Origin: Squalus acanthias | Lineage: Eukaryota | Assembly: GCA_030390025.1 (NCBI GenBank) | Contig: CM059431.1 | Span: 117,120,001 to 117,184,000 of the forward strand | Length of the DNA stretch: 64,000 bases | Direction: 5' to 3' | In this document: piece after piece, positions 5,272 to 44,041 of the stretch | Numbering within the stretch: the first letter of the stretch is position 1 | Layout: each line of letters opens with the position of its first letter | Translations under genes and position numbers: made by a program | Notes under the pieces: model-generated | The model's database searches: none | What the model was told of the DNA's origin: nothing | What the model saw: the letters and a program-made list of their open reading frames with translations, nothing else

Positions 5272-8200
5272 TGTAAAGTTTCCAAAATTTGCAGATCCCC
5301 AAAAATCTAAGCAAAAGGGACTTTGGAACTACCTCAGAGTGATAAAAATGCATTTGGGCCTAACATAAGAAATTTAAGACCAAAACCAAGCTTTGGCATT
5401 TTAAAAGGACATATCTGAAATTCAAGCCCCAGCAAACATTAACATTTAGACAATAGGCCCTGGGAGAAGGCCGCCCCACCAAAACACAGGAACCAGTAAA
5501 ACCTATCACAGAACCCATTAAAGAGACGCATAAAGATAGGAGTGCTAGGCCCAGCAAGAAACCCAAAACATGAGGACAATGCAAACTCCGATTAAACAAC
5601 AGATCAACAGGACGCAAGCCATTTGACACTCAGTAAAATCATTACTGTTGACGAGGTCTTACAATGACCAGGATTTGATTTGGTTCTGACAAGGCCACTT
5701 CAATTTAGCATAATTGAAGGCCCATCAAGCAGTTACAACAGTTCAGTAAGAAGAGAGTTCAGGACAATTTAACACCAAGTTAAACCCATCAAAACTTAAC
5801 AAGCCCGCAAAACCAAGACAATGGAATGAACAGGCCTCAACTGAAACCTCAGAAACATGGCTGCAGGGTGACAATGCCTGGGAATTAAACATACCAGGTT
5901 ATTTAACGATCAGGAAGGACAGGCAGGAAGGAAGGGGAGGTGGGGTGGCTATGTTAATAAAGGAAGGAATCACTGTAATACAGAGTAATGATATTGGGTC
6001 AAAAAATCATGATAATGAAACAGTTTTAGTGGAGATAAGGAATAATAAGGGGGAAAAAACACTAGTGGGCGTAGTCTATAGGCCTCCGAACAGTTGCAAC
6101 TCTGTTGGACGGAGTATCAATCAGGAAATAGTTGAGGCATGTAATAAGGGAACATCTATAATTATGGGGGATTTTAACTATCATATTAATTGGACAAATC
6201 AAATGGGGCAGGGCTGCCTTGAGGATGAGTTCATTGAGTGTATTAGGGATGGGTTTCTTGAGCAGTATGTAACTGAACCGACCAGGGGGCAAGCAACCTT
6301 AGATCTGGTCCTGTGTAACGAGACAGGATTAATTAAAAATGTCCTAGTAAAGGATCCCCTTGGAATGAGTGACCATAACATGGTTGAATTCCATATTCAA
6401 TTAGAGGGTGAGAAGGTTGGATCTCAAACAAGCGTGCTAAGCTTGAATAAAGGAGACTATGAAGGTATGCGAGCGGAATTGAGTAGAGTGGATTGGGAAA
6501 ATAGATTAAAGGGTAAGACGACACATGATCAGTGGTGTACATTCAAGGAGTTATTTTACAACTTCCAAAAAATATATATTCCACTGAAAAGAAAAGGGTG
6601 TAAAAGAAAGGACAGTCATCCGTGGCTAAGTAAAGAAATTAAGGATAGTATTCGACTAAAAACAAGGGCATATAAGGTAGCGAAATCTAGTGGGAGGACA
6701 GAGGATTGGGAAAAATTTAAAAGGCAGCAAAAAATAACAAAAAGATTGATTAAGAAAGGGAAGATAGATTATGAAAGTAAATTAGCAAAAAATATAAAAA
6801 CAGATAGTAAGAGTTTTTATAGTTATATAAAAAGAAAAAGGGTGGCTAAAGTAAATGTTGGTCCCTTAGAGGATGAGACCGGGAAATTAATGGTGGGAAA
6901 TATGGAGATGGCAAAAACACTGAATGAATAATTTGTATCAGTCTTTACAGTAGAGGACACTAAGAATATCCCAACACTGGACAAACAGGGGGCTATAGGG
7001 GGAGAGGAGCTAAACACAATCAAAATCACTAAGGAAGTGGTACTCGGTAGAATAATGGGACTCAAGGCGGATAAATCACCTGGACCTGATGGCTTACATC
7101 CTAGAGTCTTGAAGGAAGTGGCGGTAGGGATTGTAGATGCATTGGTAATAATTTTTCAAAACTCCCTGGATTCCGCTAAGGTCCCGGCAGACTGGAAAAC
7201 TGCTAATGTAACACCCTTATTTAAAAAGGGCAGTAGACAGAAGGCTGGTAACTATAGACCGGTTAGCCTAACATCTGTGGTAGGTGAAATTTTGGAGTCC
7301 ATTATTAAGGAAACAGTAACAGGACATTTGGATAATCATAATTTAATAGGACAAAGTCAGCATGGTTTTACGAAGGGGAAGTCATGTTTGACAAATTTGC
7401 TGGAGTTCTTTGAGGAAGTAACATATAGAGTGGATAAAGGGGAACCAGTGGACGTAGTGTATTTAGACTTCCAAAAGGCATTTGACAAGGTGCCACACAA
7501 AAGATTATTGCTTAAGGTAAAAAATCACGGGATTGGGGGTAATATTCTGGCATGGATAGAGGATTGGCTATCTAACAGAAAGCAAAGAGTTGGGATAAAT
7601 GGTTCATTCTCAGACTGGCAATCAGTAACTAGTGGTGTTCCACAGGGGTCAGTGCTGGGTCCCCAACTCTTTACAATCTATATTAACGATTTGGAGGAAG
7701 GGACCAAGCGTAACATATCAAAATTTGCAGATGATACAAAGATGGGAGGGAAAGTAGTGAGTGAGGAGGACATAAAAAACCTGCAAGGGGACATAGACAG
7801 GCTAAGTAAGTGGGCAGAGATTTGGCAGATGGAATACAACACTGGAAAGTGTGAGGTGATGCACTTTGGCAGGAAAAATCCTAGAGCAATTTATTATCTT
7901 AATGGCAAGAAACTGGAAAGTACTGAAGTGCAAAGGGATCTGGGGGTCCTGGTGCACGAAACTCAAAAGGTTAGTATGCAGGTGCAGCAAGTGATTAAGA
8001 AGGCAAATGGAATGTTGGCTTTCATTGCTAGGGGGATAGAATATAAAAATAGGGAGGTATTGCTTCAGTTGTACAAGGTATTGGTGAGACCGCACCTGGA
8101 ATACTGCATACAGTTTTGGTGTCCTTACTTAAGGAAAGACATCCTTGCTCTCGAGGCAGTGCAAAAAAGGTTCACTCGGTTAATCCCGGGGATGAGGGGG

Positions 8201-9364
8201 TGGTCATATGAGGAGAGGTTGGGTAGATTGGGACTCTACTCATTGGAGTTCAGAAGAATGAGAGGCGATCTTATTGAAACATATAAGATTGTGAAGGGGT
8301 TGGATCGGGTGGATGCGGGGAGGATGTTCCCGATGACGGGTGAGACTAGAACTAGGGGACATAGTCTTAGAATAAGGGGCTGTTCTTTCAAAACTGAGAT
8401 GAGGAGGAACTACTTCACTCAGAGGGTGGTAGGTCCATGGAATATGCTGCCACAAAAAGCTGTAGAAGCTACATCATTAAATAAATTTAAAACAGAAATA
8501 GACAGTTTCCTAGAAGTAAAGGGCATTAAGGGTTACGGGGAGCGGGCAGGAATTTGGACATGAGTCTAGGTTCGGATCCGGTCATGGCCCTGTGGGTAGT
8601 GGAGCGGGCCCAGGGACCGTGTAGCCTGATTCTGCTCCTATTTCGTGTGTGCAATTCTGTTAGATGCAGGAGATGGTTCTGTGATAGATAGTAGATTGGC
8701 GGTTAGGATCAGATCAGCCATGATCTTATTGAATGGCGGAGCAGGCTCGATGGGCCGATTGGCCTACTCCTGCTCCTATTTCTTATGTTCTTATGTTCTT
8801 ATTAACACAAAAACATTTTAGTAAGGGGTTTTGGGCGCGAAAAGGACAAAGGGGCTAAACAAGTATAATTGGGGGCCTAAGCCCCCAAGACTCTCTCTCT
8901 CTCTGGACTCTCTGACAGCGCTCACACAGCTCTCTCTCGGCTCTGTTCCAGAAGCAGCACGTTCCAGCAAGACACTCGACGACCAGACCACCATCGCAAT
9001 CAACTTACCTGGCTGGATTTCGCACTGTTAAAACCTCTGTTTGGTGAGCATTATCCCTGATCTCCTGAAACCAAAACCTAGCTAGATAGTGGGATTTTTG
9101 GGAGGGATAAGGGTTTTTGTATATTGTCATTCTCCCTCGCCTGTACCGTGTGTTCCCCAACCTGTTTAAGTGTTAAGTGTGTTTTAAGTTTGTTACCTTT
9201 TTCTTTTAATAAAAGTCAAAATTCTTTCATTGGAACCTGTTGTCTACTGCATCTTTATTCACAACCCCTAAATAAGTCCAAGGTCTGAACCAGGGGCGTG
9301 GGAGCGATTCGAACCGCTCACTGAGTCAGGGGTAAGGCTGACCCCTACCACACCACCCCCTACA
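5272..9364 (+). mobile_element. Solo LTR (about 1.14 kb) interrupted by a CR1
   Basis: TGTA...TACA ends, 4-bp TSD CAAA, TATA-like GTATAA near 8863 and AATAAA near 9208. Confidence 0.8.
5850..8802 (+). mobile_element. 5'-truncated young CR1 LINE (ORF2 APE+RT with one premature stop at 6929-6931)
   Basis: ORFs 5945..6931 and 7037..8563 are nearly identical to 40493..43444. FADD motif and (TTCTTATG)n tail. Confidence 0.95.
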
Positions 9365-30178: not shown

Positions 30179-31971
30179 TGTAAAAAATTGTGTTTTTCTA
30201 GGGGACTTAAAAACAAGTTCCAGGTTGAATTGTACAGGTACTGTAGAGTTTCGCAATTATCGCGATTCTAATAATATGAGAGAAGCAGGTTCAATTGAAC
30301 ATTTTTATTGAACGGAATGCTGTCTTGAAAATAAAGGGTACAGAAGCCTGTAAAATGGCCGCCGCGCATCGTGGCAGAAGTTTTACATGAGACACAGCGG
30401 GCAGACAAGATGGCGTCGAATATTCATTCAGTATGAGATCATACCTGGTACAAATTGAAAAGGCAGGATACAACCCGTTTGCATTTTGGACAATAGCAAT
30501 GATATAAGTGCTTGAATCGTTTCATACGCACAGTAAGAATCATTCAACTGGGCCATCGAAAGCCCATCCAGACACATCAATACACAAATACCCCCCCGGC
30601 TCAACAATGAGAGAGACATTGGCGGGTGATTAAGCCAGTATTCGGGGGGCCCCAAAACCAGTCGAGGAGACGATTCATACACATCCTGGCTGGCTCAACA
30701 ATGAAGAAGGCATTAACGGATAGTTGGCCAGTTTCAGGTGATACCGAAACCCGTTAAGAAGATAATCGCCCCATGCTGGGAGTTTTGGGCGCCAAAATCA
30801 CACAAAGGATAACATTTAGATTTGAGCGGGAGATAAGGCCGACAAAACAGTATAACTATAGAGGACAAATGTTCATCGGGAGTGAGTTTTGAAACAGACA
30901 CAGACACAGTTACGAGTAGGAGATGAAGCAGTTACAGTGACGAGTTATGGTCAGTTACGGAGAAAAGAGGAATCGGTCTCTTGGCTCTTTTTCGCTTCTT
31001 CGCTCTCTTGTTCCTTCAGCGGGTCTGTGCTGGTTGGTTATTCGAGTGTTGGGTGGAGTTCAATCAGAACGAGCCACCTCGACACGGCAGGCAGCAGGGT
31101 ACACCATCCCGATCGTCGGTAAACGGTGTCCGGACCCATCAGGGCAACACAGCGGTGTGTTCCCGAGCGAGGCCCGAGTGACGAGAAGAAAGACGAGAAG
31201 AAAGACGAGAAGAAATTCCACGTGCTGCCACGGTCAGTAAACCCCGACCGCGCCCGAAGATAAACGGCAGAGTCCACCAGTTCGAATTCTACAGACTACT
31301 TCATGACCCGGTTTGAATTCCACAAACTACTTCATGACATCAGGGAGTCTGGCTTACCCTCCGGCTCTTTGAGCGGGTAGCCCGAGCCATCCGCGATGAA
31401 CTTTACCAGGGCCGTCTCAAGTGGACCCATTCGCGGCAGCGAGAGTAAACAAGTCGGGGGCAGAAACCCTTACAGCCACGTGACAGCCAGGCGCTGCAGC
31501 GAAACGAGCTGAGAGCCTCATTTTAAATTTCCGAAGTGAGCCGAGTGGTGAGCATGTTTTCCGATCCTACAAATCCAGACGTAGTTTAAGTATATTAAGG
31601 GAGGGTGGTTTCTAAGGTTAATGTATAATGTGTTCCCCCTTTTACGATGTGTCGTGTGTTCCCCATTTCCATAGACCAAGTTTAATGAACGTGTGCAAAC
31701 TGGTACTCTCTTTGATCTGCGCCTATGACATGTATTTCATGATTTTAGACGCCATGCAATAAAGACATTCATTTCGTACTATTCAACCAGGTCTATTCGA
31801 GTCTTTTCTCTGCATTACTGCTCCTTGCATCTAAGTCCAGGTGTCAGAACCGTAAGGGCGAGTGGGTCGAACCACTCACAGGTGCTTATTGCAAAAGTCT
31901 GGCCGGAGACCAGAGCCAGCAATAGTGTAGGCAACGAAAGCCTCACCTCGCACCAGTCCGTGACCCTTACA
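30179..31971 (+). mobile_element. Solo LTR-like element (1.8 kb)
   Basis: TGTAA...TTACA ends, TATA-like motif near 30850, AATAAA at 31759, YY1-like AAAATGGC and internal tandem repeats. The U5 motif is shared with 9274-9364. No matching TSD is seen. Confidence 0.7.
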
Positions 31972-35641: not shown

Positions 35642-37474
35642 TGTGTCCCAGTGGACTTGGATCCAGGTGAGGAAAAAGATGGCTGACTTGAAGAAAACTG
35701 CTAAGCTAAGGCTACTGAACAACTTTGAATGCTAAGTGCCTGCTCCTAGTATAGTTGACACAAAGTATTCCTCACAACTTGTAACTCATATTCTACCGCT
35801 GCATCCTAATCATTCATACAAGCTTATCCTCTACATGTAAAATATTGCCCACTGAAAGCATGGCCATGTTGCAGCCCAACATAAATATAAACAGCAACGT
35901 AGAACAGAAACTGCTGTTGGATCGATATCTTCGAGGCTGCATGTAAAAAATTCTTCTAGCTACACATTGCATATTCTATCTGTCTGTCTCTCTCCCTATT
36001 ATTTTTAATAGATAACACTGTAGGGCCTGGTACTCAGTCCTCCCACTGCTATGTCATGCGTCATCCAGTTAATTTTTTCTTCTGACATGAAGGTGAATTC
36101 GATTTTTAACAAAATCTGTTTCTTAACTCACTTTGTTTTAATTATTTGCCTTTATGTTTGCTGCCAACTTGAGCCTTTTTCCAGTGGTGGGACCTCCTCC
36201 AGTGACCCCGCTCAGCTGCTGGCATCTCTCAACATCTCCCTGAGGTGTTTCCCTATCTTTCCAGCCTTAGCTTCTGCACTGAACAATTCCTCACCCTTAG
36301 TGATTTTAATCTCTATCTCAATTCCCATTGCCTTTATTTCTCCAAAATCACTGCCCTCCTGTCCTCTCCAAGTCATTCCCTCCATAGAAACTCTCCCAAA
36401 CATATTAGCGGCCACGCCTCTAACATTGCCATCTCTCATGGTATCTTTCCTCCCATGGTCTCAATCACTGAAAAGACCATCTCTGACCACTTCTTTGTAA
36501 CCCTTACCATCCACGTCCCCTACTCTTCTTTAACCCCATTCCCCCCCACCTCCCCCCCCCCACCATGTTACTTATTACTGCACACACTCCCAGCTATCTA
36601 GTCTTTGGTTCTCCATTTACTACGATACAACTGCAGCTATTGATTTGCTCAACTATTCTCTCATCGCCACTTTTGATGCAAAACCTTCACTGTCTCCCAT
36701 TCAAGGGCTGCAAACTTGAGGATATCTGATGTGCAATTGGCTTAGCCATCCATTACCAGATCTGACTCAATCAGATTAAACTCAACTGGACCTTGCTCTC
36801 CTCTGCCAAAGTATCCACTACTCTTAGAAAGTAAAGGTAATCCCAGGCTTCTTCTCTCGACTACCAACTGCCTCCTAAAACCTTCTCCCCTGTCCTTTTC
36901 TCCCTCATTTCTGATAAGTATGAGGAACTCATGGATTTCTTAATCACCATGAAAGAGGACCTCCATGCAGCTGCCTCTGCTGCTTCTCCCGTCCCTTTTC
37001 CCACCTGAACCAGAACCCCTCTTTCTCTCTCTGTAGTTTCTCTCTATCTCTTCCCATGCTCGCTCCAGTCTCATCCATGAGACCTACTTCCTGTTCCTTT
37101 GACCCCATTTCCACTAAACTCCTGACCACTTCCAGGTTTCCACGTCAACTGACATTGTAAATAGTTCCCTCGCCCCAGGAACTGCCTACCTGTCTTTCAA
37201 AACTACTATCATTAGCCCCCTCCTCAAAAAAACTTATCCTTGACCCCATTAACTACAGCCCATCACCAACTTCCTTTTACTCTCTAAATGCATTATTTCT
37301 CCTCATCCTCCTTGACCGTTGTGCAGCCTTGAACAGCCAATCACATTACCTTGCTCCAATGCCTCTTCCCTATTATTCAGCTTGGTCGGGCTGCCCTCAC
37401 TTGATTCTATTCTTATCTATTTGATGTGAGAAGTCGCACAACACCAGGTTATAGTCCAACAGCTTTATTTGAAA

Positions 37475-37511
37475 TCACAAGCTTTCGGAGCGCTGCTCCT
37501 TCGTCAGGTGA
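37475..37511 (-). ncRNA. Minimal type I hammerhead ribozyme motif
   Basis: UCAC-CUGACGA-A-GGAGC(AGC)GCUCC-GAAA-GCUU-GUGA, giving the core, stem II and a 4-bp stem I. Confidence 0.75.
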
Positions 37512-37516
37512 AGACT

Positions 37517-37553
37517 TGACCTGACGAAGGAGCAATGCTCCGAAAGCTTGTGA
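37517..37553 (+). ncRNA. Minimal hammerhead ribozyme motif (stem I mismatch)
   Basis: UGAC-CUGACGA-A-GGAGC(AAU)GCUCC-GAAA-GCUU-GUGA. Confidence 0.65.
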
Positions 37554-38274
37554 TTTCAAATAAAGCTGTTGGACTATAACCTGGTGTTGTGCGACTTTTC
37601 ACATTTGTCCACCCCAGTCCAACAGCGACATCTCCACATCATATCTATTTGATGATAGCCAGAGCTTTTCTACCAATGACTTCTTTACCCACCCCCACAC
37701 CATCATCTCAGGAGTCCCCCAAGAATCCATCCTTGCTAAATGCTGCTCCTTGGCAACATCATTGGTAGACATGAGGTCAGCTTTCACATGTATGATGTGA
37801 CCTCTTCACCACTTTTGATTTTTCTCCTCCCGCTTCGAACTGCCTATATGCCATTAGACTGCTTGTATGGTATCAAGTCTTGAATGAGCTGTAATTTCCT
37901 CCAGTTAAGCACTTAGATCACAGCCATCATCTTTGGACCTTGCCACAAATGTTGTGTGTGTCTGTGTCCTATCCTGCACCAAACCCTGCTCGTCCATTAC
38001 CATTGTCCTTGCAAACCTACATTGGCTCCTGTTACCCCATGCCTCAAATTGAAAATGTCCATCCTTGTGTTTAAATCCCTCCATGGCTTCATCCTCTCAT
38101 TATCTCTGTAAACTTCTCCTGTCCAATAACCCCTATCCCCTCCCACCCTCTCCCGAACTTTCCACTCTCTAAATATGGACTCTTGTGAATCCCCTCACCC
38201 TTCATTCCACATTTGGCAGCCATGCCTTCAGCTGCTTAGCCCCTGTACTTTGGAATTCCCTCCCTAAACCCATA

Positions 38275-39497: not shown

Positions 39498-40454
39498 ATG
39501 GGAGAGCAGGTGATGTGTTACTGCTGCAATATGTGGGAGCTGGTGGACACCATTGATGTTCACGGTGAACACATTTGCAGTAAGTGTTGGCTGCTCGAGG
39601 AACTCCGGCTCCGTGTTGATGAGCTGGAGTCCGAGCTTCAAACACTGCGACACATCAGGGAGGGGGAGAGTTACCTGGACTCCGTGTTTCAGGAGGTAGT
39701 CACACCAATTAGAGTAACTAATTCAGAAGTAGCCCGTGGTCAGGGACAGGAAGGTGTGACTACGAGTGAGGCAGGTACAGGGATCCAGGAGGTAGTGTTG
39801 GAGGAGCCGCAGCCCTTGCTCTTGTCCAACAGGTTCGAGGCTCTTACTCCCTGTGTGGATAGGAGCGGGGACTGCAGGGAGGATGAGCAACCTGGCCACA
39901 GCACCGTGGTAAGGGGGGCCATTCAAGTGGGGGGAGTAAAAAGAAATGTTGTAGTGGTAGGGGATAGTATCATTAGGGGGATAGATAGGGTTCTTTGCAG
40001 CCAAGAGCGAGAGTCCCGAAGGCTGTGTTGCCTGCCCGGTGCCAGGGTTAAGGACATCTCCTCTGGGCTGGAGAGAAACTTGGAGTGGGAGGGGGAGGAT
40101 CCAGTTGTCGTGGTCCATGTTGGTACCAATGACATAGATAGGACAAGGAAAGAGGTTCTGCTGAGGGAGTTTGAGCAGCTAGGGGCCAAATTAAAAAGCA
40201 GAACCTCGAGGGTAATAATCTCTGGATTACTACCTGAGCCACGAGCAAATTTGGCTAGGGTAAATAAAATCAGGGAGTTGAATGCGTGGCTCAAAGACTG
40301 GTGTGGGAAAAATGGGTTTTGCTTCTTGGGACACTGGCACCAGTACTGGGGCAGGAGAGAGCTGTTCCGTTGGGACGGACTTCACTTGGCCAGTGCTGGG
40401 ACTAGTGTCCTGGCGAATCGAATAACTAGGGCTGTGGAGAGGGCTTTAAACTAA
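39498..40454 (+). CDS. CR1 ORF1p: zinc finger/leucine zipper plus SGNH esterase
   Basis: CxxC..CxxC, a heptad LEELRLRVDELESEL, and the motifs VVGDSII, HVGTND and DGLHL. Confidence 0.93.
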   Translation: MGEQVMCYCCNMWELVDTIDVHGEHICSKCWLLEELRLRVDELESELQTLRHIREGESYLDSVFQEVVTPIRVTNSEVARGQGQEGVTTSEAGTGIQEVVLEEPQPLLLSNRFEALTPCVDRSGDCREDEQPGHSTVVRGAIQVGGVKRNVVVVGDSIIRGIDRVLCSQERESRRLCCLPGARVKDISSGLERNLEWEGEDPVVVVHVGTNDIDRTRKEVLLREFEQLGAKLKSRTSRVIISGLLPEPRANLARVNKIRELNAWLKDWCGKNGFCFLGHWHQYWGRRELFRWDGLHLASAGTSVLANRITRAVERALN

Positions 40455-40492
40455 TTAGTGGGGGGGAGGTTTCAAGAGAGCAAAAAATAAAA

Positions 40493-43444
40493 ATGACAAC
40501 AGAGAGGGTCATAGACATAGGTAGCAGTAGGGGAATCACAAATCAGAGCGTGGCAGGAAGGGACAGAGTGTGTGGAGTAAAAGGTAAACTGGTAAAAAGT
40601 GAAAAAGCAGGAACTAAGTGCCACAAAGCATATTTGAAAGTTCTCTATCTGAATGCACGTAGCATTCGTAACAAAATAGACGAGTTAATGGCACAAATAA
40701 CTACATATGGTTATGATATTGTGGCCATTACAGAAACATGGCTGCAGGGTGACAATGCCTGGGAATTAAACATACCAGGTTATTTAACGATCAGGAAGGA
40801 CAGGCAGGAAGGAAGGGGAGGTGGGGTGGCTATGTTAATAAAGGAAGGAATCACTGTAATACAGAGTAATGATATTGGGTCAAAAAATCATGATAATGAA
40901 ACAGTTTGGGTGGAGATAAGGAATAATAAGGGGAAAAAAACATTAGTGGGCGTAGTCTATAGGCCTCCGAACAGTTGCAACTCTATTGGACGGAGTATCA
41001 ATCAGGAAATAGTTGAGGCATGTAATAAGGGAACATCTATAATTATGGGGGATTTTAACTATCATATTAATTGGACAAATCAAATGGGGCAGGGCTGCCT
41101 TGAGGATGAGTTCATTGAGTGTATTAGGGATGGGTTTCTTGAGCAGTATGTAACTGAACCGACCAGGGGGCAAGCAACCTTAGATCTGGTCCTGTGTAAC
41201 GAGACAGGATTAATTAAAAATGTCCTAGTAAAGGATCCCCTTGGAATGAGTGACCATAACATGGTTGAATTCCATATTCAATTAGAGGGTGAGAAGGTTG
41301 GATCTCAAACAAGCGTGCTAAGCTTGAATAAAGGAGACTATGAAGGTATGCGAGCGGAATTGAGTAGAGTGGATTGGGAAAATAGATTAAAGGGTAAGAC
41401 GACACATGATCAGTGGTGTACATTCAAGGAGTTATTTTACAACTTCCAAAAAATATATATTCCACTGAAAAGAAAAGGGTGTAAAAGAAAGGACAGTCAT
41501 CCGTGGCTAAGTAAAGAAATTAAGGATAGTATTCGACTAAAAACAAGGGCATATAAGGTAGCGAAATCTAGTGGGAGGACAGAGGATTGGGAAAACTTTA
41601 AAAGGCAGCAAAAAATAACAAAAAGATTGATTAAGAAAGGGAAGATAGATTATGAAAGTAAATTAGCAAAAAATATAAAAACAGATAGTAAGAGTTTTTA
41701 TAGTTATATAAAAAGAAAAAGGGTGGCTAAAGTAAATGTTGGTCCCTTAGAGGATGAGACCGGGAAATTAATGGTGGGAAATATGGAGATGGCAAAAACA
41801 CTGAATGAATATTTTGTATCAGTCTTTACAGTAGAGGACACTAAGAATATCCCAACACTGGACAAACAGGGGGCTATAGGGGGAGAGGAGCTAAACACGA
41901 TCAAAATCACTAAGGAAGTGGTACTCGGTAAAATAATGGGACTCAAGGCGGATAAATCACCTGGACCTGATGGCTTACATCCTAGAGTCTTGAAGGAAGT
42001 GGCGGTAGGGATTGTAGATGCATTGGTAATAATTTTTCAAAACTCCCTGGATTCCGCTAAGGTCCCGGCAGACTGGAAAACTGCTAATGTAACACCCTTA
42101 TTTAAAAAGGGCAGTAGACAGAAGGCTGGTAACTATAGACCGGTTAGCCTAACATCTGTGGTAGGTAAAATTTTGGAGTCCATTATTAAGGAAACAGTAA
42201 CAGGACATTTGGATAATCATAATTTAATAGGACAAAGTCAGCATGGTTTTACGAAGGGGAAGTCATGTTTGACAAATTTGCTGGAGTTCTTTGAGGAAGT
42301 AACATATAGAGTGGATAAAGGGGAACCAGTGGACGTAGTGTATTTAGACTTCCAAAAGGCATTTGACAAGGTGCCACACAAAAGATTATTGCTTAAGGTA
42401 AAAAATCACGGGATTGGGGGTAATATTCTGGCATGGATAGAGGATTGGCTATCTAACAGAAAGCAAAGAGTTGGGATAAATGGTTCATTCTCAGACTGGC
42501 AATCAGTAACTAGTGGTGTTCCACAGGGGTCAGTGCTGGGTCCCCAACTCTTCACAATCTATATTAACGATTTGGAGGAAGGGACCAAGTGTAACATATC
42601 AAAATTTGCAGATGATACAAAGATGGGAGGGAAAGTAGTGAGTGAGGAGGACATAAAAAACCTGCAAGGGGACATAGACAGGCTAAGTAAGTGGGCAGAG
42701 ATTTGGCAGATGGAATACAACACTGGAAAGTGTGAGGTGATGCACTTTGGCAGGAAAAATCCTAGAGCAATTTATTATCTTAATGGCAAGAAACTGGAGA
42801 GTACTGAAGTGCAAAGGGATCTGGGGGTCCTGGTGCACGAAACTCAAAAGGTTAGTATGCAGGTGCAGCAAGTGATTAAGAAGGCAAATGGAATGTTGGC
42901 TTTCATTGCTAGGGGGATAGAATATAAAAATAGGGAGGTATTGCTTCAGTTGTACAAGGTATTGGTGAGACCGCACCTGGAATACTGCATACAGTTTTGG
43001 TGTCCTTACTTAAGGAAAGACATCCTTGCTCTCGAGGCAGTGCAAAAAAGGTTCACTCGGTTAATCCCGGGGATGAGGGGGTGGTCATATGAGGAGAGGT
43101 TGGGTAGATTGGGACTCTACTCATTGGAGTTCAGAAGAATGAGAGGCGATCTTATTGAAACATATAAGATTGTGAAGGGGTTGGATCGGGTGGATGCGGG
43201 GAGGATGTTCCCGATGACGGGTGAGACGAGAACTAGGGGACATAGTCTTAGAATAAGGGGCTGCTCTTTCAAAACTGAGATGAGGAGGAACTACTTCACT
43301 CAGAGGGTGGTAGGTCCATGGAATATGCTGCCACAAAAAGCTGTAGAAGCTACAACATTAATTAAATTTAAAACAGAAATAGACAGTTTCCTAGAAGTAA
43401 AGGGCATTAAGGGTTACGGGGAGCGGGCAGGAATTTGGACATGA
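40493..43444 (+). CDS. CR1 ORF2p: APE endonuclease plus reverse transcriptase (983 aa)
   Basis: LNARS, ITETW, YRPP, GDFN, SDH; then YRPVSL, LDFQKAFDKV, GVPQGSVLGP and FADD. Confidence 0.97.
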   Translation: MTTERVIDIGSSRGITNQSVAGRDRVCGVKGKLVKSEKAGTKCHKAYLKVLYLNARSIRNKIDELMAQITTYGYDIVAITETWLQGDNAWELNIPGYLTIRKDRQEGRGGGVAMLIKEGITVIQSNDIGSKNHDNETVWVEIRNNKGKKTLVGVVYRPPNSCNSIGRSINQEIVEACNKGTSIIMGDFNYHINWTNQMGQGCLEDEFIECIRDGFLEQYVTEPTRGQATLDLVLCNETGLIKNVLVKDPLGMSDHNMVEFHIQLEGEKVGSQTSVLSLNKGDYEGMRAELSRVDWENRLKGKTTHDQWCTFKELFYNFQKIYIPLKRKGCKRKDSHPWLSKEIKDSIRLKTRAYKVAKSSGRTEDWENFKRQQKITKRLIKKGKIDYESKLAKNIKTDSKSFYSYIKRKRVAKVNVGPLEDETGKLMVGNMEMAKTLNEYFVSVFTVEDTKNIPTLDKQGAIGGEELNTIKITKEVVLGKIMGLKADKSPGPDGLHPRVLKEVAVGIVDALVIIFQNSLDSAKVPADWKTANVTPLFKKGSRQKAGNYRPVSLTSVVGKILESIIKETVTGHLDNHNLIGQSQHGFTKGKSCLTNLLEFFEEVTYRVDKGEPVDVVYLDFQKAFDKVPHKRLLLKVKNHGIGGNILAWIEDWLSNRKQRVGINGSFSDWQSVTSGVPQGSVLGPQLFTIYINDLEEGTKCNISKFADDTKMGGKVVSEEDIKNLQGDIDRLSKWAEIWQMEYNTGKCEVMHFGRKNPRAIYYLNGKKLESTEVQRDLGVLVHETQKVSMQVQQVIKKANGMLAFIARGIEYKNREVLLQLYKVLVRPHLEYCIQFWCPYLRKDILALEAVQKRFTRLIPGMRGWSYEERLGRLGLYSLEFRRMRGDLIETYKIVKGLDRVDAGRMFPMTGETRTRGHSLRIRGCSFKTEMRRNYFTQRVVGPWNMLPQKAVEATTLIKFKTEIDSFLEVKGIKGYGERAGIWT

Positions 43445-44041
43445 GTCTAGGTTCGGATCGGTCATGGCCCTGTGGGTAGTGGAGCGGGCCCAGGGACTGT
43501 GTAGCCTGATTCTGCTCCTATTTCGTGTGTGCAATTCTGTTAGATGCAGGAGATGGTTCTGTGATAGATAGTAGATTGGCGATTAGGATCAGATCAGCCA
43601 TGATCTTATTGAATGGCGGAGCAGGCTCGAGGGGCCGATTGGCCTACTCCTGCTCCTATTTCTTATGTTCTTATGTTCTTATGACACCGTATCTTCATCA
43701 GTTTTGTTGTCTATTCTCAGCCTCATCCCCAATCCACACTAAGTTCTCTTTGCCAGTACCTGTCACTACAGTGGGAACAAGTAAATTATTACATCATGCT
43801 ACCTCCACTCTCTCCCACCTCAAATGAAAGAAGAAAACAAATCAAAAACCGGACAAGCAGAAGAGAACGAAAACAAAGTGGTAGAGAGGGGGAGACCAAC
43901 TTAAAGAGAGAGGAAAAAAACAGAAGACAGCAGAGATAAAGTTGCAACCAAAACAACTAGACTAAGGCAACAAATGTAGGTCATGTAGACTTTCCAGGAG
44001 TAATACTATAGGAGGCCCACTAATAATATATTAAAATCATT

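What the first reader, a model, noticed from the sequence alone, without database searches (positions are those of the whole stretch)
9273..9364. Covarying structured RNA motif at the U5 end of two otherwise dissimilar LTRs (copy 1)
Seen: TAAGTCCA..GAACC is followed by a closing stem (AGGGGcGTGG / CCACCCCCT) that sequesters the LTR terminus. Inside it are hairpin GAGCG-ATTCGAAC-CGCTC and hairpin AGGGG/CCCCT. The LTR at 30179-31971 has the same order with different stem sequences, including a compensatory C-G to T-A change. The loop resembles a tRNA T-loop. Inference: a conserved, possibly undescribed cis-acting RNA next to the PBS, with a role in primer capture, packaging, translation or self-cleavage.
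Basis: partly seen in the sequence, partly recalled or inferred. Interest (0 to 1): 0.75.

Follow-up and report, generated by a model that had tools for sequence, protein, structure and literature searches.

The report
Primer-tRNA docking structure in shark retrovirus
This folded RNA at the end of a very abundant retrovirus-derived repeat is most likely half of the structure that positions the host arginine tRNA that starts reverse transcription, a design already proposed for avian retroviruses and HIV and here supported by matching base changes across many repeat families in one cartilaginous-fish genome.

Summary
Both copies are solo LTRs of two related endogenous retrovirus families (gag 37-49% identical), primed by tRNA-Arg(UCG). 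The motif occurs at least 16,636 times in the genome.

In provirus-type copies the 5' part of the motif pairs with the last PBS bases and the leader, forming a long U5-leader stem. Across 15 families its pairs covary: 4.27 of 5 paired with the own leader, 2.66 with others, 0 of 50,000 permutations. Next comes an unpaired GAAC(C), complementary to tRNA nt 52-56, then a stem that closes on the LTR end. This is the layout proposed for the avian sarcoma virus U5-TpsiC contact and the HIV primer activation signal.

The 'T-loop-like' loop is better read as the complement of the T arm; it occurs in only three lineages. There is no Rfam match and no sign of a ribozyme. tRNA pairing is inferred, not shown. 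In these two families an in-frame gag AUG overlaps the PBS (71 of 73 loci).

The scan noted a similar reading on other DNA of this genome (e1-7805577). New member of a known kind.

The parts
5272..5849 (+). 5' part (U3) of solo LTR copy 1, family F1; starts TGTA, preceded by target-site duplication CAAA
5850..8803 (+). LINE inserted into LTR copy 1; ends in a CTTATGTT repeat tail (CR1/L2-type label is recalled, not from a call)
8804..9364 (+). 3' part of solo LTR copy 1 (rest of U3, R, U5); ends TACA, followed by CAAA
9208..9213 (+). AATAAA poly(A) signal; places the motif in U5 (inferred)
   Evidence: sequence
9241..9267 (+). distal U5 strands of the U5-leader stem (two 10-bp helices, 9241-9250 and 9258-9267, with the leader of PBS-bearing F1 copies)
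9273..9277 (+). TAA-containing internal-loop strand; TAA is seen here in families F1-F9; unexplained
9278..9285 (+). U5 strand of the PBS-proximal U5-leader helix; pairs with PBS nt 16-18 and the first 5 leader bases; covaries across families
9287..9291 (+). GAACC, predicted unpaired, complementary to primer tRNA nt 52-56 (PAS-like element, inferred)
9292..9301 (+). 5' strand of the closing (U5-IR-like) stem
9302..9319 (+). hairpin with 8-nt loop; 9306-9315 is complementary to tRNA-Arg nt 52-61 with one G-U pair
9325..9346 (+). second, family-1-specific hairpin (conserved register GTCAG/CTGAC)
9353..9364 (+). 3' strand of the closing stem and the LTR end (terminal CA); in provirus-type copies the PBS follows after 3-4 nt
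30242..31971 (+). solo LTR copy 2, family F2; flanks GTAC/GTAA (4-bp duplication with one mismatch)
31837..31851 (+). copy 2: U5 strand of the proximal U5-leader helix and GAACC
31852..31971 (+). copy 2: closing stem (31852-31858/31964-31970) enclosing the hairpin 31860-31877 and a family-specific inserted domain

Best explanation
The motif is the U5 half of the reverse-transcription initiation domain of a tRNA-Arg-primed endogenous retrovirus. SHOWN by sequence comparison: the element is a retrovirus with a tRNA-Arg(UCG) PBS 3-5 nt after the LTR; U5 pairs with the leader across the PBS; a stem closes on the LTR end; GAAC sits right after the U5-leader helix. INFERRED: when the tRNA's 3' 18 nt anneal to the PBS, its T arm opens. 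The U5-leader helix holds GAAC(C) beside the 3' end of the PBS, so tRNA nt 52/53-56 cross over and pair with it, forming a three-strand junction that activates or positions the primer. The U5 bases GTC(C), identical to tRNA nt 59-62, compete for the PBS end and may gate annealing. In three lineages a hairpin loop offers a second, longer complement to the same T arm, probably an extra docking or hand-over site (least certain step). In the two solo LTRs of the window the structure is a remnant without PBS or leader.
For: PBS: 260 family-1 LTR-PBS junctions, 3,397 exact Arg PBS sites, matching tRNA-Arg(TCG) genes L076 and L177. Element: protease, RT, two RNase H-type domains, integrase; nearest solved RTs are foamy virus (E 1e-53) and MLV (4e-47), Ty3 8e-33. 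U5-leader stem: with the U5 anchor chosen without looking at the leader, 15 of 19 families had the anchor. Mean pairs were 4.27 of 5 with the own leader and 2.66 with other families' leaders, 0 of 50,000 permutations; with 11 lineage representatives, 4.27 vs 2.54, again 0 of 50,000. Each of the five columns shows 3-4 standard pair types. Long duplex: own U5 ranked first in 10 of 19 and first or second in 16 of 19. The helix had probability 0.79 or more in 13 of 19 whole-region folds. GAAC began 0-5 nt after the helix in 14 of 19 families (read) against 223 of 3,610 background positions, 6.2%, and was mostly unpaired (0.58-0.98). A closing stem on the LTR end was found in 12 of 12 families tested, -7.8 to -18.4 kcal/mol, without a shuffle control. 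The hairpin loop varies only opposite tRNA nt 59-60, which the PBS takes, and is constant opposite nt 52-58. Precedent: PMC3185550, PMC11181671, PMC1865047 (passages).
Against: No experiment shows tRNA pairing. GAAC(C) gives only 5 bp (about -7.5 to -8 kcal/mol as a free duplex), and GGUUC is nearly universal in tRNAs (recalled), so covariation with the primer could not be tested. The short-duplex test alone ranked own U5 first in only 6 of 19 families. The helix was improbable (0.25 or less) in 6 of 19 folds, including the F2b copy closest to window copy 2. Five of 19 families lack an exact GAAC (three have GAATC or GATCC; F15 and F16 have nothing clear). The hairpin is missing from F4-F16, so it is not generally needed. 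Families are not independent, and only F1 and F2 were shown to be retroviral. The PAS model itself is contested in HIV (PMC3185550, passage).
Confidence: 0.7

Rival explanations
1. The stems are real, but GAAC and the hairpin are protein-binding or translation/packaging signals (Gag, RT or a host factor), not tRNA partners. The long U5-leader stem acts like the HIV U5:AUG switch.
For: The stem is much longer than priming needs (three helices, -41 to -43 kcal/mol for copy 1). It encloses the AUG at the PBS in F1/F2 and, by eye, a leader AUG in F3. An unexplained TAA is kept in the internal loop of F1-F9.
Against: It does not explain why the conserved unpaired bases are exactly the complement of tRNA nt 53-56 and sit exactly where the tRNA strand leaves the PBS. 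It is not exclusive of the best explanation.
Confidence: 0.12
2. The hairpin loop is a kissing-loop dimer initiation site.
For: The commoner loop holds a 6-nt palindrome in an 8-nt loop (34 of 60 PBS loci); its arms covary in three lineages.
Against: A successful subfamily breaks the palindrome to 4 nt (17 of 60 loci). Self-duplexes are weak (-5.1 and -3.7 kcal/mol) against -8.7 to -14.8 for pairing of the loop region with the T arm, before the cost of opening the stem. The hairpin is absent from most families.
Confidence: 0.09
3. The loop is a DNA B-box on the minus strand (TFIIIC site or Pol III promoter).
For: Both loop variants read GGTTCGANNC on the minus strand, which fits the B-box consensus (consensus recalled); the variable positions are the same NN.
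Against: A B-box is the T-arm sequence, so the match is expected under the tRNA-pairing model too. A DNA site needs no hairpin, yet the arms show two compensatory changes. The distance to the LTR end varies widely between families, and I saw no conserved A-box by eye. ARAGORN finds no tRNA in the window.
Confidence: 0.06
4. It is a self-cleaving ribozyme or another stand-alone catalytic RNA.
For: Multi-stem junction with invariant unpaired bases.
Against: No Rfam match in the window at gathering score or in 11 family loci at E up to 5. The invariant bases are accounted for by the leader and the tRNA. The enclosed domain varies from 33 to 156 nt. Cleavage in U5 would cut the minus strong-stop template (inference).
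Confidence: 0.02

Closest known systems
Avian sarcoma/leukosis virus U5 structure: U5-leader stem, U5-TpsiC interaction, U5-IR stem
   Same: U5 pairs with the leader across the PBS; a short U5 tract is complementary to the primer's TpsiC region; a stem closes on the LTR end. The U5-TpsiC proposal is mentioned in passages of PMC3185550 and U5-IR in PMC3601003. The order of the three parts in ASLV is recalled; the primary papers were not held.
   Different: Primer is tRNA-Arg(UCG), not tRNA-Trp. The closing stem carries a multi-branch insert of 33-156 nt. Three lineages have a second anti-T-arm sequence in a hairpin loop. F1/F2 have an in-frame gag AUG overlapping PBS nt 1-2.
HIV-1 primer activation signal (PAS/anti-PAS)
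   Same: Upstream U5 element complementary to the TpsiC arm, tied to a U5-leader stem; said to occur in all retroviral genomes (PMC11181671, passage).
   Different: The HIV PAS is 8 nt and masked inside the stem (PMC1865047). Here it is 4-5 nt and predicted unpaired just after the stem.
Snakehead-retrovirus-related ERVs (clade Huo, PMC6001957; elephant shark CmiERV lineage I, PMC4422223)
   Same: Basal fish retrovirus in a cartilaginous fish. An Arg-tRNA PBS and a coiled-coil Gag are features I recall for snakehead retrovirus; that paper was not held.
   Different: No snakehead retrovirus sequence was available, so placement in this clade is untested. The RT groups with coelacanth and frog elements (support 89, quick tree).
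Lokiretroviruses (PMC7947760)
   Same: gag, pol with tether plus RNase H, and env with a basic cleavage site.
   Different: The RT motif is LPQGFHNSP, not the PFGYANSP type. The two eel rows with that motif fall far from this RT. The paper's supplement lists 0 of 3 Orectolobiformes genomes positive.

Membership tests
Retroviral U5 initiation structure (ASLV/HIV type) | 18-nt PBS for a host tRNA directly after U5 | tested here: met
Retroviral U5 initiation structure (ASLV/HIV type) | U5-leader stem spanning the PBS | tested here: met
   covariation and permutation; duplex ranks; folds 13 of 19
Retroviral U5 initiation structure (ASLV/HIV type) | U5 tract complementary to the primer TpsiC arm | tested here: met
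   GAAC 0-5 nt after the helix in 14 of 19 families vs 6.2% background; only 4-5 nt long
Retroviral U5 initiation structure (ASLV/HIV type) | stem that sequesters the LTR end next to the PBS (U5-IR) | tested here: met
   12 of 12 families, no shuffle control
Retroviral U5 initiation structure (ASLV/HIV type) | the tract physically pairs with the primer and promotes initiation | not testable with these tools
   needs probing and primer-extension assays
Retroviridae (ERV) | gag, PR-RT-tether-RNase H-IN, env between LTRs; RT on the retrovirus side of the tree | tested here: met
   F2. F1: gag homology only
Lokiretrovirus | RT in the Loki lineage | tested here: not met
   motif and quick tree; the Loki label of the eel rows rests on a motif read by eye from the supplement
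Lokiretrovirus | env similar to paramyxovirus F | tested here: inconclusive
   no Pfam or PDB sequence match; not folded
Foamy viruses | Gag without a Cys-His box | tested here: not met
   a CX2CX4HX4C box is in the gag frame of L062; criterion from PMC5210030
Snakehead-related clade Huo | RT groups with snakehead retrovirus | not tested
   no named reference among the homologs
Known ribozymes and other Rfam families | covariance-model match | tested here: not met
Kissing-loop dimer initiation site | conserved self-complementary loop | tested here: inconclusive
   6-nt palindrome in 34 of 60 loci, 4-nt in 17 of 60

The most novel reading that the evidence does not exclude
In families F1 and F2 the leader is a primer-sensing switch. 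The gag start codon is formed by the base before the PBS plus its first two bases, in strong Kozak context and in frame with gag. A dedicated hairpin loop captures the opened T arm of tRNA-Arg. Primer annealing would then physically cover the start codon and turn the RNA from messenger into template, and the PBS itself would encode the first residues of Gag.
Probability: 0.2. Interest if true: 0.62.

Novelty: new member of a known kind. Interest (0 to 1): 0.33.

Why it matters
The contact between U5 and the primer's T arm has been argued over in HIV because mutations also disturb the RNA fold. Here evolution supplies the compensatory series: the U5-leader helix changes sequence from family to family while a GAAC stays fixed at its end. 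That is independent comparative support that the design is old and shared by basal fish retroviruses. It is not a new principle. The second anti-T-arm hairpin and the AUG inside the PBS are the parts that could surprise a specialist, and both can be tested on short RNAs.

Tried and rejected
Rfam: nothing in the window or in 11 family loci at E up to 5. ARAGORN: no tRNA in the window. Lokiretrovirus identity: considered from the gene layout, rejected on RT motif and tree; two look-ups in that paper's supplement (cut when stored) showed no Arg PBS among the places displayed, and not all places were viewed. Relatives in other collections: none in viral contigs; one 15-residue match in metagenomes, not used. 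Sequencing runs: no RNA holder listed. Contigs of 4 of the 10 listed runs (two coded organisms, three studies) cover the U5-PBS region of L064 but cannot show expression, ends or strand. Test with another primer: a pattern for an initiator-Met PBS found 0 sites, and a loose LTR-end pattern was mostly noise (436,994 matches vs 342,954 in the control), so covariation with the tRNA could not be tested. Anticodon-arm complementarity (8-9 nt runs) appears in single copies but is not the same in both copies; rejected. Sense-strand T-loop mimic: closing pair wrong. Env: no PDB sequence match; only two homologs, from a skate and a sawshark. Literature: searches listed no paper on this structure in fish or shark ERVs; (start codon overlapping a PBS, four terms) gave 0 papers, a narrow search. 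Five papers asked for were not held. The careful RT tree did not finish; only the quick tree is cited, with 9 redundant bird rows and hits under 230 residues left out.

Full report
What is in the window. The pattern TAAGTCCA..GAACC occurs twice, at 9273 and 31832, with 0.01 expected by chance. Both sites lie at the 3' end of solo LTRs, 60-70 nt after an AATAAA. Copy 1 runs 5272-5849 and 8804-9364, split by a LINE of about 2.95 kb, with a CAAA target-site duplication. Copy 2 runs 30242-31971, with flanks GTAC/GTAA. The fold is weak against shuffles for copy 1 (18 of 200) and strong for copy 2 (0 of 200). The second hairpin is family-specific, and its conserved register is GTCAG/CTGAC. Rfam and ARAGORN find nothing.

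The element. The host genome is 3.7 Gb. The only env homologs are from a skate and a sawshark, so a cartilaginous fish is inferred. The two LTR ends have 2,345 and 1,547 candidate matches, and the GAACC-plus-hairpin pattern occurs 16,636 times against 26 for the control. Provirus-type F2 copies carry gag with a Cys-His box, an in-frame stop before pol, PR-RT-two RNase H-type domains-IN, and env. Of the two examined, L061 lacks most of pol and L062 has a LINE in gag and a broken pol frame. F1 gag is 37-49% identical to F2 gag in the longest match of each of the 11 of 12 loci that matched, so the families are related. The RT is closest to foamy-virus and MLV enzymes among solved structures. In a quick tree of 70 rows it groups with coelacanth and frog elements (support 89), away from gypsy rows and from two eel rows with a Loki-type motif. 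It is therefore not a lokiretrovirus and, having a Cys-His box, not a foamy virus. A link to snakehead retrovirus is suspected from recalled features and was not tested.

The primer. The PBS starts 3-5 nt after the LTR end in F1-F8 and matches the 3' end of two tRNA-Arg(TCG) genes of this genome, L076 and L177. There are 260 F1 junctions and 3,397 exact sites of this PBS type.

The missing half. I fetched 60 of the first 68 listed PBS sites and 40 of 99 sites chosen only for a different leader start. They fall into clusters, from which I took one natural copy for each of 19 families or subfamilies. Left out were L158 (a tRNA retrocopy) and L095 (close to F1a); L146 and L149, whose leaders are not their family's, were not used as representatives. 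The representatives were picked by eye. In most families, the U5 bases just 5' of GAAC are the reverse complement of PBS nt 16-18 plus the first leader bases.

Tests of the U5-leader stem. (a) Free duplex search: with 30 leader bases the own U5 ranked first in 10 of 19 and first or second in 16 of 19; with 8 leader bases it ranked first in only 6 of 19. (b) Anchor fixed from U5 alone (GTY, then GAAC within 6 nt; present in 15 of 19): 4.27 of 5 columns paired with the own leader and 2.66 with other families' leaders, and 0 of 50,000 permutations reached the observed total. Restricting to 11 lineage representatives gave 4.27 vs 2.54, again 0 of 50,000. Each column shows 3-4 standard pair types. 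(c) Whole-region folds gave the helix a probability of 0.79 or more in 13 of 19, and 0.25 or less in 6, among them F2b, F3 and F1c. For the window copies, the U5 pairs with the leader of the three most similar PBS-bearing copies at -41 to -43 (copy 1) and -27 to -32 kcal/mol (copy 2), in several helices. A solo LTR cannot show this, which is why the 5' part looked like a conserved single strand.

The tRNA contact. GAAC starts 0-5 nt after the end of the best duplex in 14 of 19 families (read). Three more have GAATC or GATCC, and two have nothing clear. The background is 223 of 3,610 positions. GAAC(C) is the complement of tRNA nt 52/53-56, which are freed when nt 59-76 pair with the PBS. The helix places it exactly where the tRNA strand leaves the PBS, giving a three-strand junction (inference). 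A stem then closes on the LTR end in 12 of 12 families tested, around an insert of 33-156 nt (no shuffle control). Passages read describe the same kind of contact for HIV (PAS) and mention it for Rous/avian sarcoma virus, and note that the HIV model was challenged (PMC1865047, PMC11181671, PMC3185550). U5-IR is mentioned in PMC3601003. The primary avian papers were not held, so the detailed order of parts there is recalled.

The hairpin. It is found in F1, F2 and F3 only, with arms GAGCG/CGCTC, GAGTG/CACTC and GGTG/CACC: two compensatory changes. Among 60 PBS loci the loop is ATTCGAAC in 34, GGTCGAAC in 17, a single-base variant in 2, and absent in 7. In copy 1, 9306-9315 is the longest complement to either tRNA gene outside the PBS-bound part (10 nt, nt 52-61, one G-U). 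In copy 2 the match is 7 nt and other runs of 7-9 nt are as long or longer. The two loop types differ only opposite nt 59-60. This fits a second docking site for the T arm. It fits a minus-strand B-box equally at the sequence level, though a B-box needs no covarying arms. A kissing loop fits less well, since one subfamily breaks the palindrome. The role of this hairpin is the least certain part.

A start codon in the PBS. In F1/F2 the base before the PBS is A in 71 of 73 loci, against 7 of 41 in other families. This makes an ATG in strong context, in frame with gag. In 9 of the 10 copies translated, the next Met follows exactly 24 codons later, in both families; the tenth is frameshifted. There is no ATG in 9148-9364 of copy 1, but there are 8 in the comparable stretch of copy 2, which weakens a simple scanning model; the transcription start was not determined. 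This is the basis of the novel case.

Earlier notes. An AI note on another solo LTR of this genome (e1-7805577) reached a similar reading: a primer-docking hairpin with ASLV as closest known. From the lines shown, it does not mention the U5-leader covariation. Note e1-7789869 calls a provirus of this genome Loki-like; for F2 the RT does not support that label, and it may be another element.

Papers seen. PMC7947760: first quarter of the text, passages and two supplement look-ups. PMC4422223: first of two parts. PMC1865047, PMC11181671, PMC3185550, PMC12193657, PMC5210030, PMC3601003, PMC3592414, PMC6001957: passages only. Supplements of the other papers were not read and could hold LTR annotations of related ERVs.

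Verdict. A real, covarying structure and a new member of a known kind: the U5 half of a retroviral primer-initiation domain. The U5-leader stem is well supported, the tRNA contact is likely but unproven, and the hairpin and the PBS AUG are open. Interest 0.33.

Noticed in passing
L047, L061, L064-L075 (PBS of F1/F2 provirus-type copies): The A before the PBS forms an ATG in frame with gag in 71 of 73 F1/F2 loci; the next Met is 24 codons on in both families.
   Followed up: partly
window 9273-9275 and equivalent places in families F1-F9: A TAA is kept in the internal loop 2-4 nt before the proximal U5-leader helix in all nine families whose LTRs end in TACA or TTAC; unexplained.
   Followed up: no
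L159, L161, L163, L164, L166-L168, L171, L173, L175 (family F5): U5 holds a decayed earlier LTR end plus PBS-like sequence 60-70 nt upstream of the present PBS, as if the LTR grew by capturing a duplicated PBS region.
   Followed up: no
L158 (G000:C28:10783432): PBS-like 18-mer continued by the complement of the T loop with a mismatch opposite nt 58 and no LTR upstream: probably a tRNA-Arg retrocopy that records misreading of the modified A58.
   Followed up: no
L062:5415-5421: gag and pol are in one frame, separated by TGA followed by CTAG, a context recalled as a readthrough signal.
   Followed up: no
G000:C26, 38.99-42.2 Mb: Large tandem arrays of tRNA-Arg(TCG) 3' ends with a period of about 1,623 bases; 429 matches in the genome.
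   Followed up: no
L149 (G000:C8:91669736): The PBS is followed by an inverted copy of the LTR end instead of the leader.
   Followed up: no
window 5750-8800 and 40430-43680: Two nearly identical (97-100%) copies of the same LINE; the second has a 1004-aa open frame.
   Followed up: no
window 37424-37604: A 90-nt inverted repeat, 96% complementary, with 1 nt between the arms.
   Followed up: no
L061:5872-8241: Env frame of 789 aa with an RQRR site and no Pfam or PDB sequence match; homologs only in a skate and a sawshark.
   Followed up: partly
G000:C6, 46.81-47.17 Mb and C1, 6.95-7.16 Mb: Clusters of PBS-bearing copies in the same orientation at spacings of tens of kb, suggesting segmental tandem duplication.
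   Followed up: no
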